Origin: Sphingomonadales bacterium
Lineage (GTDB): Bacteria; Pseudomonadota; Alphaproteobacteria; CAZZKF01
Assembly (NCBI GenBank): GCA_046756385.1
Contig: JBHHWG010000005.1
Location: forward strand, 1,817-65,816
Direction: 5' to 3'
Length of the DNA: 64,000 nt
Shown here: one piece after another, positions 29,424-35,007 of the stretch
Position numbering within the stretch: the stretch's first letter is position 1
Layout: each line of letters opens with the position of its first letter
Notes under the pieces: generated by a model
Seen by the model: only the letters and a program-made list of their open reading frames with translations
Database searches by the model: none
Told to the model about the DNA's origin: nothing
Position numbers and translations under genes: made by a program

Positions 29424-29678
29424 TATCAAGGAAACTTGGTATAAGGCGGTCCGGCCCGATAGTTGACAGCGATTGGAGGTCAGCACTATGTTCGCGCTTT
29501 CTGGATATCCTAAATCGTTGTGAACAAGCTTATGCGTGTGCCCTTATGAGCACGGGGTCATAAAGAATGAAAATCCCTGTTTTTAAGAGAGATCAGGACA
29601 AAGGCGCGGCGTCCTTGCCCCATTGGGTCGCGGATTGAGGCCGCCGTCGGAAGTCCCGATACCGAGGATTGTTTGACA

Positions 29679-30996: not shown

Positions 30997-32352
30997 TCAT
31001 TCGGACAGAGCTTGCGGGGCCGTGTTCAGCGCTGGCAGGACATCGTCTTCGGTTGGCGGTTCCGGCAGGCGCCCCTCGGCCGGTTCCGGCGGCCTGACCC
31101 AGCAATCGCCGCCACGGACCTGAATTTCCACGCAAATCGCCTCGGCCTCGGATAGCAACTTCAAGGGACCGGCATTGAGGCGGAAGAAGAAACCGCTCGG
31201 CTCACCTTCCCGGTCTCCAAAGTCCTTCTCGGAGCGGCGCGGTTCGAGATGGCCGATCAAATCGCCATACAAGCTGTTCAGCTGCCGCCACCCCGGCATC
31301 AGCTCTTCCTTCTTGCGGTAGGCCGCGATCTGAACGGCGTATCCGGTCGGGTCCACCAGTGGCGGGATCTCGATCTCGACCAGCGGTTCCGGCTCGGGTT
31401 CCGGCTCCGGCATGGGTTCGGGTTCGGGTTCGGGCGCGATTATTCGCGCGATCGTCTCATCGGCAACTTCCTTATCCGCTGTAAAAGACGGATTGGCGGG
31501 TTGCCTGGTATCATGCTTCGGATTGACGACCCCGCTCAAAACGGCCCTTCTTCGGGCGTCAGGAGTCATGGCCCGCAGTTCGGCGAAGAATGCGAGATTT
31601 CCATTGACCGCGGCGTTGTCGAGATCGATCGCGGCGATATTCCGGGCGGCCCCGGCCCGTCCCGCCAGGCCATATGCCAGTGCAAGATTCTGACGATGCC
31701 GAGGGGATGCGGCGCCGTCGAGCGCGACTTCCTCCAGCAGTGGAATCGCCTCCTCCAAAGACCCGGCCAGAGCCAGAGAGAGGCCGAAATTGTTGCGCAA
31801 CTGAATATCCGAGGGCGCGATGTCAAGAGCCTGGCGATAGGCCGTGACGGCCTCGCGGTGCCGGCCCAGCGCATCGAGCGCTACCGCCATGCCGTTCCGC
31901 GCCTCGATATCAACGCCATCAAGCGTAACCGCGGTCTCGAACAGGGGAAGCGCCAATTCAGGCCGACCGAGCGCAATCCAGGCGCCCCCCAGGCCCCGCA
32001 GGGCCAGCGGGTCGCGCGCATCGTTGTCCAATGCGGTTCGGTATACCTCGGTCGCCTCTTCATATTGGCCCAGGGCGGTGAGCGCGCGGCCGAGTCCAAC
32101 CAGCGGCCGATTGTCGCCCGATCTCTGATCGTGGGCGCGCCGGTAGATCGGGATTGCCGAGGCAAAGCGTCCTTCGCTCGCCAGATTATCGGCCAGGCGG
32201 AGCAGCGTGGAGCTTTCTCCGCCGCCCCTGCTCTGGGTTTTGATAATCGTCTGCGCCGGCCTCGATGCGGGTGTGCTGGCGCAGGCCGCCGCCACCAGCG
32301 AAACACCGGCGAGCAGAATCGCCAGGCGCCGCCGACCGGTTGCTTGCCCCAT
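30997..32352 (-). CDS. TPR-repeat lipoprotein with C-terminal SPOR domain
   Basis: Lipobox LVAAAC after a basic N-terminus; ~6 TPR-like repeats; PEPEPEPMPEPEPEPEP linker; SPOR-like C-terminus (YAVQIAAYRKKEEL...FFFRLNAGPL...EAICVEIQ). ATG at 32352 avoids overlap with the upstream gene. Confidence 0.7.
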   Translation of the reverse strand: MGQATGRRRLAILLAGVSLVAAACASTPASRPAQTIIKTQSRGGGESSTLLRLADNLASEGRFASAIPIYRRAHDQRSGDNRPLVGLGRALTALGQYEEATEVYRTALDNDARDPLALRGLGGAWIALGRPELALPLFETAVTLDGVDIEARNGMAVALDALGRHREAVTAYRQALDIAPSDIQLRNNFGLSLALAGSLEEAIPLLEEVALDGAASPRHRQNLALAYGLAGRAGAARNIAAIDLDNAAVNGNLAFFAELRAMTPDARRRAVLSGVVNPKHDTRQPANPSFTADKEVADETIARIIAPEPEPEPMPEPEPEPEPLVEIEIPPLVDPTGYAVQIAAYRKKEELMPGWRQLNSLYGDLIGHLEPRRSEKDFGDREGEPSGFFFRLNAGPLKLLSEAEAICVEIQVRGGDCWVRPPEPAEGRLPEPPTEDDVLPALNTAPQALSE

Positions 32353-32368
32353 CGGACGCTGCTTTTGT

Positions 32369-32941
32369 CTATCCTTGAACAAGGATGCCCTCTCTCACAT
32401 TGTCACCTGTCATTTCAACGACGCCGATCACAGACCTTATTAGTCCGAGATCGTCCGTCAAGGGCAGTGTGACGCAGTTGTACTCCGTGCCGTCCGGGCC
32501 GCAGGGAAAAAAGTCCCTGCGCGCAATGGGCAGGCCGCTCGCCAGGGCCTTGCGGGCGAGATCGGTGATCCACTCCAGCAACATGGCCCCGTCGCGGGCA
32601 TTGGCGACACCGCCGCCCGCGGCAAGCGGCAAGCGCGCGATCCGCGTAAAAACAAGCGCGCCCGCCCGATCCGGCTGATCCACCATGAAGCACCGCGGCC
32701 ACAGGTCCCGCAGCCGCTCGGGCCCGGCCTGGCGTTTGGTCACATATCCTTTCCGGCCCCGGGCGTGATACCACAACGCCAGCAATCTTTCGGTCGCCGT
32801 CGCGCATCCTTCCGCGCTGTCCGAAGGGTTGTGGCCTGTTAAATCGGAGTCGAGTCGTTGGGTGGCGCGACCGTTTCCGGTCGTTCTCTGGGGTGTAAAG
32901 CGGCCCGCCTTCATGTTGGTTGCTTTGCCGGCATCGGTCAT
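32369..32941 (-). CDS. hypothetical protein with Lys/Arg-rich disordered N-terminal tail; candidate ParA partner
   Basis: Start codon at 32939-32941 directly abuts the parA-like stop at 32942-32944. N-terminal MTDAGKATNMKAGRFTPQRTTGNGRATQR. No domain is recognisable by eye. Confidence 0.5.
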   Translation of the reverse strand: MTDAGKATNMKAGRFTPQRTTGNGRATQRLDSDLTGHNPSDSAEGCATATERLLALWYHARGRKGYVTKRQAGPERLRDLWPRCFMVDQPDRAGALVFTRIARLPLAAGGGVANARDGAMLLEWITDLARKALASGLPIARRDFFPCGPDGTEYNCVTLPLTDDLGLIRSVIGVVEMTGDNVREGILVQG

Positions 32942-33661
32942 CTACTTCCTGAGCGCAATGTTACGCCGCCCGAAAACCGCCCGGTTCGGAGCGTGAAACA
33001 GGGCCCTGTCGGTCCGTGGTTGCCCCATTGCGTTGGGCGGGCAACGGCGCAAACGGTCGCGCAAATATATCCAGAGGGCGCTGATTTCGGACTTGGACAG
33101 GGATTTCGGATCGAGCTCTCCCACTGTTTGCCCGTCTATCATGCTGACCGCAAAGTCGACCCGCTGATGAATCGTCTGCGGGGCCACGGTGCCGTGCTGT
33201 GACAACGCAACCGCCGCATCCGCCGTGATTCGCGCACGCCTGGTGGCGGCATTGACCACAAACACCAGGGGTTTTGCATTCTGCTCAATAAGCTCGACCG
33301 TCGCGGCCACCGCATGGAGGTCATGGGGGCTGGGCCGGGTCGGCACGACAACGAGATCGGCAAGCGCGATTACGCTTTGAATCGCGGTGGTGAACGCAGG
33401 CGGCGTGTCGATTACCGCGAGTTTGAATCCCTTGGCGCGCGCTTTTGTGAGATCATTGAGCAGCCTGGCCATGCTGGACTGCGCGAAGGCCGGCGTTGGT
33501 GAAGCGCGTTCGCTCCACCAGTTGGCGAGACTGCCCTGGGGATCGGTATCGACCATTACGACCGGCCCGTCACCGGCAAGTTCCGCCTCGACAGCAATGT
33601 GGCCCGATAGCGTGGTCTTGCCGGAGCCGCCTTTTTGAGATGCGAATGCCAGAACCTGCAT
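32942..33661 (-). CDS. ParA/MinD-family ATPase (orphan ParA-like)
   Basis: Deviant Walker A SQKGGSGKTT, MVDTDPQGS and a Walker B-like VIDTPP; 239 aa. No parB or parS-like gene nearby. Confidence 0.8.
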   Translation of the reverse strand: MQVLAFASQKGGSGKTTLSGHIAVEAELAGDGPVVMVDTDPQGSLANWWSERASPTPAFAQSSMARLLNDLTKARAKGFKLAVIDTPPAFTTAIQSVIALADLVVVPTRPSPHDLHAVAATVELIEQNAKPLVFVVNAATRRARITADAAVALSQHGTVAPQTIHQRVDFAVSMIDGQTVGELDPKSLSKSEISALWIYLRDRLRRCPPNAMGQPRTDRALFHAPNRAVFGRRNIALRK

Positions 33662-33699
33662 GGCGCGGCGGCCTATCTGTCACCCATCCGCGACGGGAA

Positions 33700-34020
33700 A
33701 CGGGTTTGCGGGATAATAATGGAGTTACTTTTCATGAAATTAACGGCCAAACCAACTCTATCCGATAATTAAGTCACAATCGCGTGAGACCATTTAATAT
33801 AGAAATAAAAACGTTAACGATAAGTAAAATGAGTTTTGGACTGATCTAATTACGACCACTTGAGCTTGATGATATTTACCGAAAATATAATAATAATTTT
33901 AACTTAACATGATAAAAATTGCAGCCCAGAACACATTTGTCCGGGTTGGTGCAATAATGCAGGCTATCTTTAATATCTCGCTCGCCACAAAGGAATGACC
34001 AAGCTAATATTGGTATAGAG
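33700..34020. other. ~320-bp AT-rich (~30% GC) divergent intergenic island between the parA-like operon and the Sel1/SPOR gene
   Basis: Strong compositional contrast with ~63% GC flanks; many TTAA tracts, including TTAACGATAAGTAAA, a one-mismatch CtrA-box-like TTAA-N7-TTAA. Confidence 0.45.
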
Positions 34021-34083
34021 TTGATCATCGAAGACAGTCGACGGCAAATTATCGCCCTTAACCATTTGAAGGACCGTCCGATA

Positions 34084-35007
34084 ATGTCGAAGGCAGGGAA
34101 AAGTGCTCTAGCAGCGACGATGGGGCTTTGCGCGGTCATGATGGCCCACGAGGCTGTTGCCGATATGTCGAAGGCGTTGGGCGCCTATGAACGGGGCGAC
34201 TACCCGGCCGCGGCACGGGAATGGCTGTCTCATGCCGCGCAAGGAAACGCCGAGGCATTATTCAATCTGGGTCAGCTATATCGGCAGGGCCTTGGTGTGG
34301 AGCGCGATGCCGGGCGCGCTGAAAAATACTATTTGCGAGCGGCGCGGCGTGGCCATGTCCGGGCGCAAAGCAATCTCGGGACGATGCTGTTTTTCAAGAA
34401 TCCAGCGCCCGATTATGAAAATGCGCTGACCTGGTGGCGGGTGGCGGCGAAGGCTCGGGAGCCGCAAGCCCGTTACATGCTGGGGGTGGTCCATTTGAAC
34501 GGCGAGGTCGTGCCCAGGGACCTGGTCAGGGGCTATGCGCTGCTGACACTGGCCGCCGCCGCGGGTGTCGAGAAAGCGGCCCAGGCCCGCAAGGCGGTCC
34601 GAGAATCACTCGATCAGAAGACGCGAATCGCCGCCGAGGCCCTGGCCCTGGAGATCGACCCGCGGGCGCAACTGTCGGCGCTGGAACCGGGCCCTGAGCC
34701 GCACCCTCAACCCGCCCCATCGGCCGATCAAGTCCCCGTTGGCGAACCCGCCGGCTTTCGGATTCAGCTTGGCGCGCTCGGCTCAAAGGCGATGGCCTGG
34801 GAAACCTGGGACCGGCTGGTTAAGCGGCACGGCGATTTGCTGACGCGTCTCGCGGCCGGAGTCGAAATATTTGATCGCGGCCCCGGTCACCAACCGCTTT
34901 ACCGGCTCCGCGCCGGTCCATTCCCGAATAAAGACGCCGCAGCCAGGCGCTGCGAGGCGCTGGCGTCACACGGCGCGGGATGCTTTGTCGTCCCGCCGTC
35001 CCGATGA
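34084..35007 (+). CDS. Sel1-repeat protein with C-terminal SPOR domain, secreted
   Basis: Signal peptide MSKAGKSALAATMGLCAVMMAHEAVA; Sel1-like repeats (AEALFNLGQLYRQGLGVERD...); SPOR-like C-terminus (FRIQLGALGS...LYRLRAGPF...CFVV). Confidence 0.7.
   Translation: MSKAGKSALAATMGLCAVMMAHEAVADMSKALGAYERGDYPAAAREWLSHAAQGNAEALFNLGQLYRQGLGVERDAGRAEKYYLRAARRGHVRAQSNLGTMLFFKNPAPDYENALTWWRVAAKAREPQARYMLGVVHLNGEVVPRDLVRGYALLTLAAAAGVEKAAQARKAVRESLDQKTRIAAEALALEIDPRAQLSALEPGPEPHPQPAPSADQVPVGEPAGFRIQLGALGSKAMAWETWDRLVKRHGDLLTRLAAGVEIFDRGPGHQPLYRLRAGPFPNKDAAARRCEALASHGAGCFVVPPSR

What the first reader, a model, noticed from the sequence alone, without database searches (positions are those of the whole stretch)
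30997..35007. Orphan ParA-like ATPase coupled to an unassignable basic-tailed protein, flanked by two different SPOR-domain proteins
Seen in sequence: parA-like (32942-33661, deviant Walker A KGGSGKTT) ends at the codon directly before the start of a 190-aa ORF (32369-32941). That ORF has a ~40-residue Lys/Arg-rich, Gly/Thr-rich N-terminal tail and a C-terminal domain I cannot place in any family. A TPR lipoprotein follows on the same strand, ending in a PEPEPE linker and a SPOR domain. A Sel1-repeat secreted protein ending in another SPOR domain is transcribed divergently from a shared ~320-bp AT-rich region. No parB or parS-like site is present. Established knowledge: SPOR domains bind denuded septal glycan at division sites. 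ParA/MinD-family ATPases position cargo: MipZ-FtsZ, PpfA-chemoreceptor arrays, McdA-carboxysomes. Their partner proteins typically stimulate the ATPase through basic unstructured N-terminal peptides (ParB, McdB, MinE-like). Inference: this looks like a division-site or envelope-associated positioning module. The partner protein has no named counterpart that I recognise.
Basis: partly seen in the sequence, partly recalled or inferred. Interest (0 to 1): 0.7.

Follow-up and report, generated by a model that had tools for sequence, protein, structure and literature searches.

The report
ParA operon that lost its DNA-binding partner
This is a rare variant of an unstudied, widely conserved chromosomal gene cluster: a plasmid-type ParA ATPase sits between two septal-wall-binding (SPOR) proteins, its usual small DNA-binding partner gene is missing, and a PAS-fold sensor-like protein sits next to it instead.

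Summary
The interpretation needs revision.

**ParA.** It is not a family-less orphan. Its core is 53-61% identical to small plasmid type Ib partition ParAs, and ParF is the closest solved structure.

**The usual partner.** In 79 of 80 related species genomes, mostly Sphingomonadales, the gene after this ParA encodes a ParG-like ribbon-helix-helix (RHH) protein. It carries a conserved N-terminal ASL..LLARKG.A.PAMRPQ peptide. Plasmid relatives have the same pair. That gene and that peptide are absent from the window.

**Conserved cluster.** In those genomes a Sel1-SPOR gene is divergent upstream in 70 and a TPR/SPOR gene follows in 74. A CtrA-box-like element (TTAA-N7-TTAA) lies upstream in 78 of the 80 upstream regions scanned, the window's included.

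**Protein X.** X can be placed. It is a divergent PAS_5-type PAS domain with a disordered N-terminal tail that is not conserved. The family of Caulobacter MopJ is the closest named one. X-like genes are rare, present in 1 of 80 genomes. Where found they usually follow the RHH gene, so X is an accessory, not the standard partner.

**Unresolved.** Whether X now serves as ParA's partner here remains open.

I found no paper on this cluster. I rate it a new variant of a known kind.

The parts
32942..33661 (-). ParA/MinD-family ATPase, type Ib (ParF-like) core of about 206 aa plus a 33-aa C-terminal tail ending VFGRRNIALRK
   Evidence: Walker A is KGGSGKTT. NF041546 ParA_partition scores 161 bits, E 2e-47. 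Best solved relative is ParF 4dzz/5u1g at E 2e-16. The core is 53-61% identical to plasmid ParAs. It is 61-74% identical to more than 7,600 chromosomal homologues. An FG[RK][RK] tail motif is present in 84 of 85 family members, and the NFRRTVF motif is lost here.
32369..32941 (-). X: a disordered N-terminal tail (about 1-44) followed by a divergent PAS_5-like PAS domain (about 48-180)
30997..32382 (-). TPR lipoprotein with a PEPEPE linker and a C-terminal SPOR domain, co-oriented with and overlapping X
   Evidence: TPR families score up to 67 bits and SPOR 23.8 bits against a cut-off of 21. The lipobox LVAAC is seen in the translation. A homologue lies downstream of ParA in 74 of 80 species loci.
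34021..35007 (+). Secreted Sel1-repeat protein with a C-terminal SPOR domain, transcribed divergently (likely start ATG at 34084)
   Evidence: Sel1 scores 67.8 bits and SPOR 47 bits. A homologue is divergent upstream of ParA in 70 of the 80 species loci, 76 of which have enough upstream sequence to judge.
33662..34020 (.). AT-rich divergent promoter region
   Evidence: GC is 39% against 61% for the window. It holds 5 of the 6 sigma-70-like hits in the 4.4-kb scan, against 1.3 expected for that whole scan. No iterated centromere-like repeat array was found.
33814..33828 (-). CtrA-box-like element TTTACTTATCGTTAA(C), which is TTAA-N7-TTAAC with one mismatch, 153 nt upstream of the ParA start
   Evidence: It aligns with equivalent elements in L005 and L090. 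An element within one mismatch of TTAA-N7-TTAA lies within 300 nt upstream of ParA in 78 of 80 upstream regions scanned, against 5.5 +/- 2.2 in shuffles. The motif definition is from PMC6180460.

Best explanation
**What it is (shown).** The locus is a derived, RHH-less variant of a conserved chromosomal module of Sphingomonadales and neighbouring alphaproteobacterial lineages.

- The module is a domesticated plasmid-type (type Ib, ParF/ParG-like) partition pair. It consists of a ParA ATPase plus a ribbon-helix-helix adaptor that carries an N-terminal LLARKG peptide.
- This pair is co-transcribed with a TPR-SPOR lipoprotein. It faces a divergent Sel1-SPOR gene across a promoter region that carries a CtrA-box-like site.
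- In the window's lineage the RHH adaptor gene has been deleted. ParA is now directly abutted (stop-start) by X.
- X is a lineage-restricted PAS_5-type PAS protein. In sister genomes it sits after the RHH gene as an accessory.

**How it most likely works (inferred).**
- ParA cycles between an ATP-bound dimer on a surface and a released ADP form. By analogy with type Ib ParAs that surface is the nucleoid.
- In relatives the RHH protein, bound to DNA, triggers hydrolysis through its N-terminal peptide.
- The operon is expressed in a CtrA-timed manner together with septal-glycan-binding proteins. The system therefore serves a cell-cycle or division-linked positioning or regulatory task.
- In this window X is the only operon-encoded candidate that could modulate or be carried by ParA. 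It would most likely do so through its folded PAS domain rather than its non-conserved tail.
For: **Identity of ParA**
- Family and structure matches.
- 53-61% identity to plasmid ParAs. The downstream genes on those plasmids have the same N-terminal peptide plus RHH architecture.

**Module conservation**
- RHH gene present in 79 of 80 loci, Sel1-SPOR in 70, TPR/SPOR in 74.
- The RHH assignment rests on a profile that hits ParG 1p94, PutA and CopG RHH domains and on weak Pfam RHH hits.

**Loss in the window**
- No RHH homologue by tblastn.
- No N-terminal partner peptide by HMM. The plasmid positive controls scored 22.9 and 8 bits.

**X as an accessory**
- Gene order ParA-RHH-X-TPR/SPOR in L005, L090 and L091, and ParA-RHH-X in L094. 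Order RHH-X in L087.
- L001, an independent sample, has the same RHH-less order as the window.

**ParA still looks functional**
- ParA is 73% identical between the window and L001, while X is 46-48% identical. All ATPase motifs are intact. ParA therefore seems to have been maintained after the RHH loss.

**Link between X and ParA**
- Every X-bearing locus whose ParA tail is visible lacks the NFRRTVF tail motif. That motif, or its NFRRIVF variant, is present in all 81 other family members examined.

**Cell-cycle link**
- CtrA-box-like element.
Against: - No direct evidence shows that X touches ParA.
- X's tail is not conserved and lacks the partner motif.
- In L095 an X-like gene sits with TPR-SPOR but without ParA or RHH directly upstream. 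X may therefore be tied to the envelope protein rather than to ParA.
- An RHH adaptor could be encoded elsewhere in this incomplete genome (MAG). Only this window was searched.
- No centromere-like repeats were found near the operon in the window or in three relatives.
- CtrA control is inferred from a motif only. In this AT-rich region one-mismatch matches arise by chance at roughly 0.5 per region, by my own estimate.
- The link between a cytoplasmic ParA and periplasmic SPOR proteins rests on gene order alone.
Confidence: 0.6

Rival explanations
1. X is the dedicated partner of ParA. Its basic, unstructured N-terminal tail stimulates the ATPase, as in ParB, ParG or McdB, and X links ParA to a division-site cargo.
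For: - The stop and start codons abut, and the order ParA-X-TPR/SPOR recurs in an independent sample.
- Residues 1-44 of X are disordered. The first 30 residues hold 6 basic and 1 acidic residue, by my count from the sequence (one search gives 6 K+R and 5 D+E for residues 1-49).
- The canonical RHH partner is absent.
- Distant X-like proteins carry a conserved N-terminal GSLLSI.IR-type motif followed by a linker and the PAS_5-like domain. That layout resembles an adaptor.
- X-bearing loci have lost the NFRRTVF tail motif of ParA.
Against: - The tail is not conserved among the four closest homologues and its net charge over residues 1-49 is +1 to +2.
- It scores nothing against the partner-peptide HMM.
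- In L005, L090, L091 and L094, X coexists with an intact RHH partner.
- The GSLLSI.IR motif is missing from the window's clade.
Confidence: 0.25
2. X is a PAS_5 signalling protein that works with the TPR-SPOR envelope protein or with cell-cycle kinases, as MopJ does in Caulobacter. It has no direct role in the ParA cycle. ParA here works alone or with an adaptor encoded elsewhere.
For: - PAS_5 relationship.
- MopJ is a single-domain PAS_5 protein acting on the DivJ/DivK/CtrA circuit (PMC4432633).
- L095 has X-like plus TPR-SPOR without ParA or RHH directly upstream.
- L067 (Aurantiacibacter flavus) keeps a typical ParA with neither RHH nor X at the locus.
Against: - Of 8 X-like contexts examined, 6 include the ParA gene and 7 include ParA or the RHH gene.
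- Loss of the ParA tail motif correlates with the presence of X.
- X is cytoplasmic and TPR-SPOR is periplasmic, so a direct contact is unlikely.
Confidence: 0.3
3. The cassette is a decaying remnant of an integrated plasmid partition system. After the loss of its adaptor it has no function in this organism.
For: - Close similarity to plasmid ParAs.
- The adaptor is missing.
- The window ParA deviates at 23 of 150 highly conserved family columns, including R116H, R127Q and R178Q.
Against: - The ORF is intact with all nucleotide-binding motifs.
- Sister genomes that still have the RHH deviate almost as much, at 18-21 columns, so the deviation reflects lineage rather than decay.
- ParA is 73% identical to the L001 copy, which also lacks the RHH.
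- The module sits at a syntenic housekeeping position next to rpoN and ptsN in several lineages.
Confidence: 0.1

Closest known systems
ParF-ParG type Ib partition system of plasmid TP228 (PDB 4dzz, 5u1g, 1p94)
   Same: A small ParA without an N-terminal DNA-binding domain. ParF is the best solved match to this ParA. In relatives the partner is an RHH protein with a flexible N-terminal tail, and its profile hits ParG. The gene order is ParA then adaptor.
   Different: This system is chromosomal, vertically conserved and embedded between SPOR-protein genes. ParA carries an extra 33-aa tail. In this window the RHH partner is absent. No centromere repeat array was found.
Small plasmid ParA plus N-peptide/RHH pairs (Comamonas pZM22-2, Xanthomonas pXCV19)
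   Same: The ParA core is 54-61% identical to the window's ParA. It is up to 69% identical to other members of the chromosomal family. The downstream proteins carry the same SL..GL[IV]A.KG.A.P peptide and an RHH domain.
   Different: The plasmid ParAs end near residue 206-216 and lack the FG[RK][RK] tail. They have no SPOR neighbours and no PAS_5 gene.
MopJ, the single-domain PAS_5 protein of Caulobacter crescentus (PMC4432633)
   Same: A single PAS_5-type domain with no effector domain, restricted to alphaproteobacteria. The X profile matches PF07310 proteins at 99.1% probability.
   Different: X itself does not reach the Pfam PF07310 threshold. It has a 45-residue disordered tail and sits in a ParA operon. 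I did not compare it with the MopJ sequence itself. MopJ's partners, DivJ and DivK, have not been shown to be relevant here.
Cargo-positioning ParA/MinD ATPases (MipZ, MinD, PpfA, McdA/McdB)
   Same: A deviant Walker A ATPase that may have been repurposed for something other than plasmid segregation, with a possible link to division.
   Different: The MipZ profile matches only the N-terminal P-loop region (30.6 bits, residues 3-52) and MinD scores 23 bits against a cut-off of 213. The match to McdA covers residues 66-130 only. None of these systems uses an RHH or a PAS_5 partner.

Membership tests
ParA/MinD (deviant Walker A) ATPases | KGGxxGK[ST] deviant Walker A with the signature lysine, plus Walker A' and Walker B aspartates | tested here: met
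   KGGSGKTT at residues 10-17, DTDPQG and VIDTPP, all invariant across 20 family members. CbiA and AAA_31 score above their cut-offs.
Type Ib plasmid partition ParA (NCBIfam NF041546, ParF-like) | Full-length match to the family profile at or above the curated cut-off | tested here: inconclusive
   161.3 bits against a cut-off of 180, covering profile positions 1-201 of 203. The core is 53-61% identical to annotated plasmid ParAs. ParF is the top PDB hit.
Type Ib plasmid partition ParA (NCBIfam NF041546, ParF-like) | A cognate small centromere-binding (RHH) partner encoded immediately downstream | tested here: not met
   Absent from the window. Present in 79 of 80 related species loci and on the plasmids.
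Type Ib plasmid partition ParA (NCBIfam NF041546, ParF-like) | Iterated centromere repeats next to the operon | tested here: inconclusive
   Only short two-copy repeats were found in the window's intergenic region and in three relatives. Binding sites elsewhere cannot be excluded.
Chromosomal ParABS | A ParB (Spo0J) gene and a parS site (TGTTNCACGTGAAACA) | tested here: not met
   No parS within 3 mismatches.
MipZ / MinD | Full-length profile match. For MinD, also a C-terminal amphipathic membrane helix. | tested here: not met
   MipZ PF09140 matches only residues 3-52. minD_bact scores 23.3 bits against a cut-off of 212.9. The tail was not tested for membrane binding.
PAS_5 (PF07310) for protein X | Match to the Pfam profile at the gathering score | tested here: not met
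   No hit at E<=0.1 for X itself. Of ten relatives scanned, one passes the cut-off (P0129, 29.1 bits against 22) and four show sub-threshold hits.
PAS_5 (PF07310) for protein X | Remote homology and a PAS fold: a five-stranded antiparallel sheet flanked by helices | tested here: met
SPOR domain proteins (PF05036) | Profile match at or above the gathering score | tested here: met
   23.8 bits for TPR-SPOR and 47 bits for Sel1-SPOR, against a cut-off of 21. Glycan binding was not tested.

The most novel reading that the evidence does not exclude
In this lineage a PAS-fold protein has taken over from the DNA-binding RHH adaptor as the only operon-encoded partner of a partition-type ParA. A DNA-segregation cassette would thereby have become a signal-responsive ATPase switch with a non-DNA cargo. 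It would be expressed under CtrA control together with two septal-glycan-binding proteins. More broadly, the ParA-RHH-SPOR module of Sphingomonadales would be an undescribed system coupling chromosome and division.
Probability: 0.2. Interest if true: 0.8.

Novelty: new variant of a known kind. Interest (0 to 1): 0.55.

Why it matters
**A conserved but unstudied module.** ParA/MinD ATPases are the general bacterial solution for placing things in the cell. Each new pairing of ATPase and adaptor has revealed a new cargo. This work shows that a plasmid-type ParA-RHH pair has been fixed on the chromosome of a large group of alphaproteobacteria. ParA is 61-74% identical across lineages, and the pair is always wired to two SPOR-domain envelope proteins and a CtrA-like site. 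I found no description of this module in six full-text literature searches.

**A natural experiment.** The window is a case in which the DNA-binding adaptor has been lost and a PAS-domain protein remains. This makes two questions directly testable:
- What does the module position?
- Can a ParA switch partners from a DNA-binding adaptor to a sensor-type protein?

Several cultured relatives in the list of 80 loci (species of Sphingomonas, Novosphingobium and Qipengyuania) carry the full module and could be used for such tests.

Tried and rejected
1. **Centromere-like repeats.** I looked for direct and inverted repeat arrays in the ParA-upstream regions of the window and three relatives. Only short two-copy matches turned up, so no centromere call is possible.
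2. **Strict CtrA box.** The strict TTAA-N7-TTAAC box and GANTC sites are rare in the 300 nt upstream and absent from the window. The signal appears only when one mismatch is allowed.
3. **Fusion of the RHH N-terminus onto X.** I asked whether X's N-terminus might be a remnant of the RHH protein's LLARKG peptide, since the start of P0002, 'MNIARKDNAS', looks similar by eye. The motif HMM gives no significant score to any X-clade tail, so I rejected the idea.
4. **Decay of ParA after adaptor loss.** The window ParA has 23 deviations at conserved columns. Sister genomes with the RHH have 18-21, and L001 keeps the arginines that the window changed. The test does not discriminate.
5. **Word-indexed protein searches with X.** These returned only 2 and 7 hits. 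The exhaustive HMM search was needed.
6. **Literature.** Six full-text searches found nothing on a ParA-RHH-SPOR module.
7. **AlphaFold database search.** The afdb50 fold library was unavailable.
8. **ParA-X complex prediction.** I did not attempt one. The structure tool folds single chains and reports no inter-chain error estimate.

Full report
**1. Observation**

- ParA-like protein: 32942-33661(-), 239 aa.
- X: 32369-32941(-), 190 aa.
- TPR lipoprotein with a PEPEPE linker and SPOR domain: 30997-32382(-).
- Sel1-SPOR protein, divergent: 34021-35007(+).

Pfam confirms TPR plus SPOR (23.8 bits against a cut-off of 21) and Sel1 plus SPOR (47 bits). The ParA TAG stop is followed immediately by X's ATG in the same frame, with AGGAAG just upstream. 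X overlaps the TPR-SPOR ORF by 14 nt.

The intergenic region is 359 nt at 39% GC, against 61% for the window. No parS and no ParB-like sequence is present.

The surrounding genes are chromosomal housekeeping genes: lptB, rpoN, ptsN, hsp20, a TPP enzyme, tRNA-Ala and aroA. NCBI labels the source a Sphingomonadales MAG.

**2. What the ParA is**

It is not a family-less orphan.
- It scores 161 bits against NCBIfam ParA_partition, whose cut-off is 180.
- Its best solved relative is ParF of TP228.
- Residues 1-206 are 53-61% identical to thousands of small plasmid ParAs.
- It also has more than 7,600 close chromosomal homologues at 61-74% identity. They come from Sphingomonadales, Emcibacter, Iodidimonas, Kordiimonadaceae and Rhodothalassiaceae, many on megabase contigs.
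- The chromosomal family differs from the plasmid proteins by a tail of about 33 aa. The tail ends in FG[RK][RK] in 84 of 85 members and usually contains NFRRTVF.

**3. The conserved module, and what is missing here**

I examined 80 species-representative genomes.
- The gene directly after ParA is the same small protein in 79 of 80.
- A Sel1-SPOR gene is divergent upstream in 70 of the 80 loci, 76 of which have enough upstream sequence to judge.
- A TPR/SPOR gene follows in 74 of the 80.

That small protein has three features.
- An N-terminal peptide with consensus pfASLssxLLARKGgAkPAMRPQ.
- A variable linker.
- A C-terminal block RAAFTLRLDxxRHLKLRLA..SAQQLVTEALD.

A profile of the C-terminal block hits RHH domains in the PDB, including ParG (1p94), PutA and CopG. 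Plasmid relatives (Comamonas pZM22-2, Xanthomonas pXCV19) encode the same peptide-plus-RHH protein after their ParA. The module is therefore a domesticated type Ib ParA-RHH partition pair.

In the window neither the RHH gene nor the peptide motif exists. tblastn finds nothing. The motif HMM's best window hit has E 0.35, while the plasmid controls score 22.9 and 8 bits.

**4. What X is**

An exhaustive HMM search of 1.84 billion representatives finds only 25 relatives. Several carry weak PF07310 (PAS_5) hits.

| Test | Result |
|---|---|
| Profile-profile against PF07310-bearing proteins | probability 99.1%, E 6e-19 |
| AF2 model | mean pLDDT 78; disordered 1-44; confident alpha/beta core 48-180 |
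| Foldseek against PDB | top hits PAS/LOV/Cache domains |

The characterised PAS_5 protein is MopJ of Caulobacter, a polar single-domain regulator of the CtrA circuit (PMC4432633). X is therefore a divergent PAS_5-type PAS protein, not an unplaceable fold.

**5. Where X-like genes sit**

| Locus | Gene order |
|---|---|
| L005 (ParA 74% identical to the window's), L090, L091 | ParA-RHH-X-TPR/SPOR |
| L094 | ParA-RHH-X |
| L087 | RHH-X |
| L095 | X-TPR/SPOR, no ParA or RHH directly upstream |
| Window and L001 (independent sample) | ParA-X-TPR/SPOR |

Among the 80 species genomes only one carries X. X is thus a rare accessory that normally coexists with the RHH partner. The window and L001 represent loss of the RHH.

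ParA has stayed 73% identical between the window and L001, while X is 46-48% identical. This argues that ParA remained under selection after the loss.

A second, independent RHH loss without X is seen in Aurantiacibacter flavus (L067).

**6. Is X ParA's partner?**

For:
- The stop and start codons abut.
- The RHH is absent.
- Every X-bearing locus has lost the NFRRTVF motif of the ParA tail. That motif, or its NFRRIVF variant, is present in all 81 other members examined (plus the tails). The X-bearing loci fall in at least two separate ParA lineages.

Against:
- X's tail is not conserved among its four closest homologues. Its net charge over residues 1-49 is +1 to +2.
- It lacks the partner peptide.
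- In L095 X travels with TPR-SPOR alone.

I put direct ParA-X coupling at roughly one in three to one in two. If it exists, the folded domain is the more likely contact than the tail.

**7. Regulation**

The intergenic regions are otherwise unalignable, but they share one element. It is TTTACTTATCGTTAA(C) at 33814-33828 in the window, with equivalents in L005 and L090.

A TTAA-N7-TTAA site with at most one mismatch lies within 300 nt upstream of ParA in 78 of 80 upstream regions scanned, mostly at -75 to -150. Shuffles give 5.5 +/- 2.2. TTAA-N7-TTAA is the CtrA full site (PMC6180460). This is motif evidence only, and the relatedness of the genomes inflates the count. Even so, it fits cell-cycle-timed expression with division genes.

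**8. Verdict**

It is wrong on three points:
- ParA is a plasmid-type partition ATPase.
- The standard partner is an RHH protein, which is absent here.
- X is a PAS_5-like accessory.

Function remains inferred. I found no literature on the module.

Noticed in passing
window 33814-33828 (also 33794-33808 and 33893-33907): A CtrA-box-like TTAA-N7-TTAA element with one mismatch lies upstream of parA. An equivalent element is present in 78 of 80 upstream regions scanned, against about 5.5 expected from shuffles. The two extra window matches may be chance in AT-rich DNA.
   Followed up: partly
window 32939-32944: The ParA stop codon TAG is followed directly by X's ATG in the same reading frame. Read-through of a single stop would produce a ParA-X fusion protein.
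   Followed up: no
window 32942-33040 (ParA residues 207-239); loci L007-L086: The chromosomal ParA family has a C-terminal tail that plasmid ParAs lack. FG[RK][RK] near the end is kept in 84 of 85 members. NFRRTVF, or its NFRRIVF variant, is kept in all members except the X-bearing loci (window, L007, L090, L094; also the partial L001 and L091). The FGRRQ-type ending loosely resembles, from memory, the FtsZ C-terminal peptide (AFLRRQ). That resemblance is untested.
   Followed up: partly
window 29424-29672: No hpf (ribosome hibernation factor) gene lies between rpoN and ptsN, and tblastn finds none anywhere in the window. Relatives L003, L005 and L090 have hpf at that position.
   Followed up: partly
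L094 72-1247: A second ParA-like ATPase fused to a C-terminal PilZ domain is encoded just upstream of the ParA-RHH-X cluster in this metagenomic contig.
   Followed up: no
L067 5001-7103 (Aurantiacibacter flavus): A family-typical ParA, with only 1 deviation at 150 conserved columns, is followed directly by the TPR/SPOR gene. Neither an RHH gene nor X is present. This is an independent loss of the adaptor.
   Followed up: partly
P0125-P0134; L091 856-1416; L094 2792-4036; L095 352-1572: Distant X-like proteins carry a conserved N-terminal motif (GSLLSI.IR, LSLIAIKPRR, GSLTQLKIRR). Some also have linkers of 200-250 residues before the PAS_5-like domain, an adaptor-like layout. The motif is absent from the window's clade and does not score against the RHH-partner peptide HMM.
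   Followed up: partly
window 32369-32941 (X residues 84, 147, 156): Cys84 is invariant and Cys156 nearly so across 8 X-family members. Cys147 is kept in the three closest sequences. This may indicate a redox or cofactor site in the PAS core.
   Followed up: no
L002-L086, the RHH genes after ParA: Besides the LLARKG peptide and the RHH domain, many RHH proteins in the Sphingomonadales-type loci share a third short motif, (E)DLGWNDMG, about 40 residues from the N-terminus. Its role is unknown.
   Followed up: no
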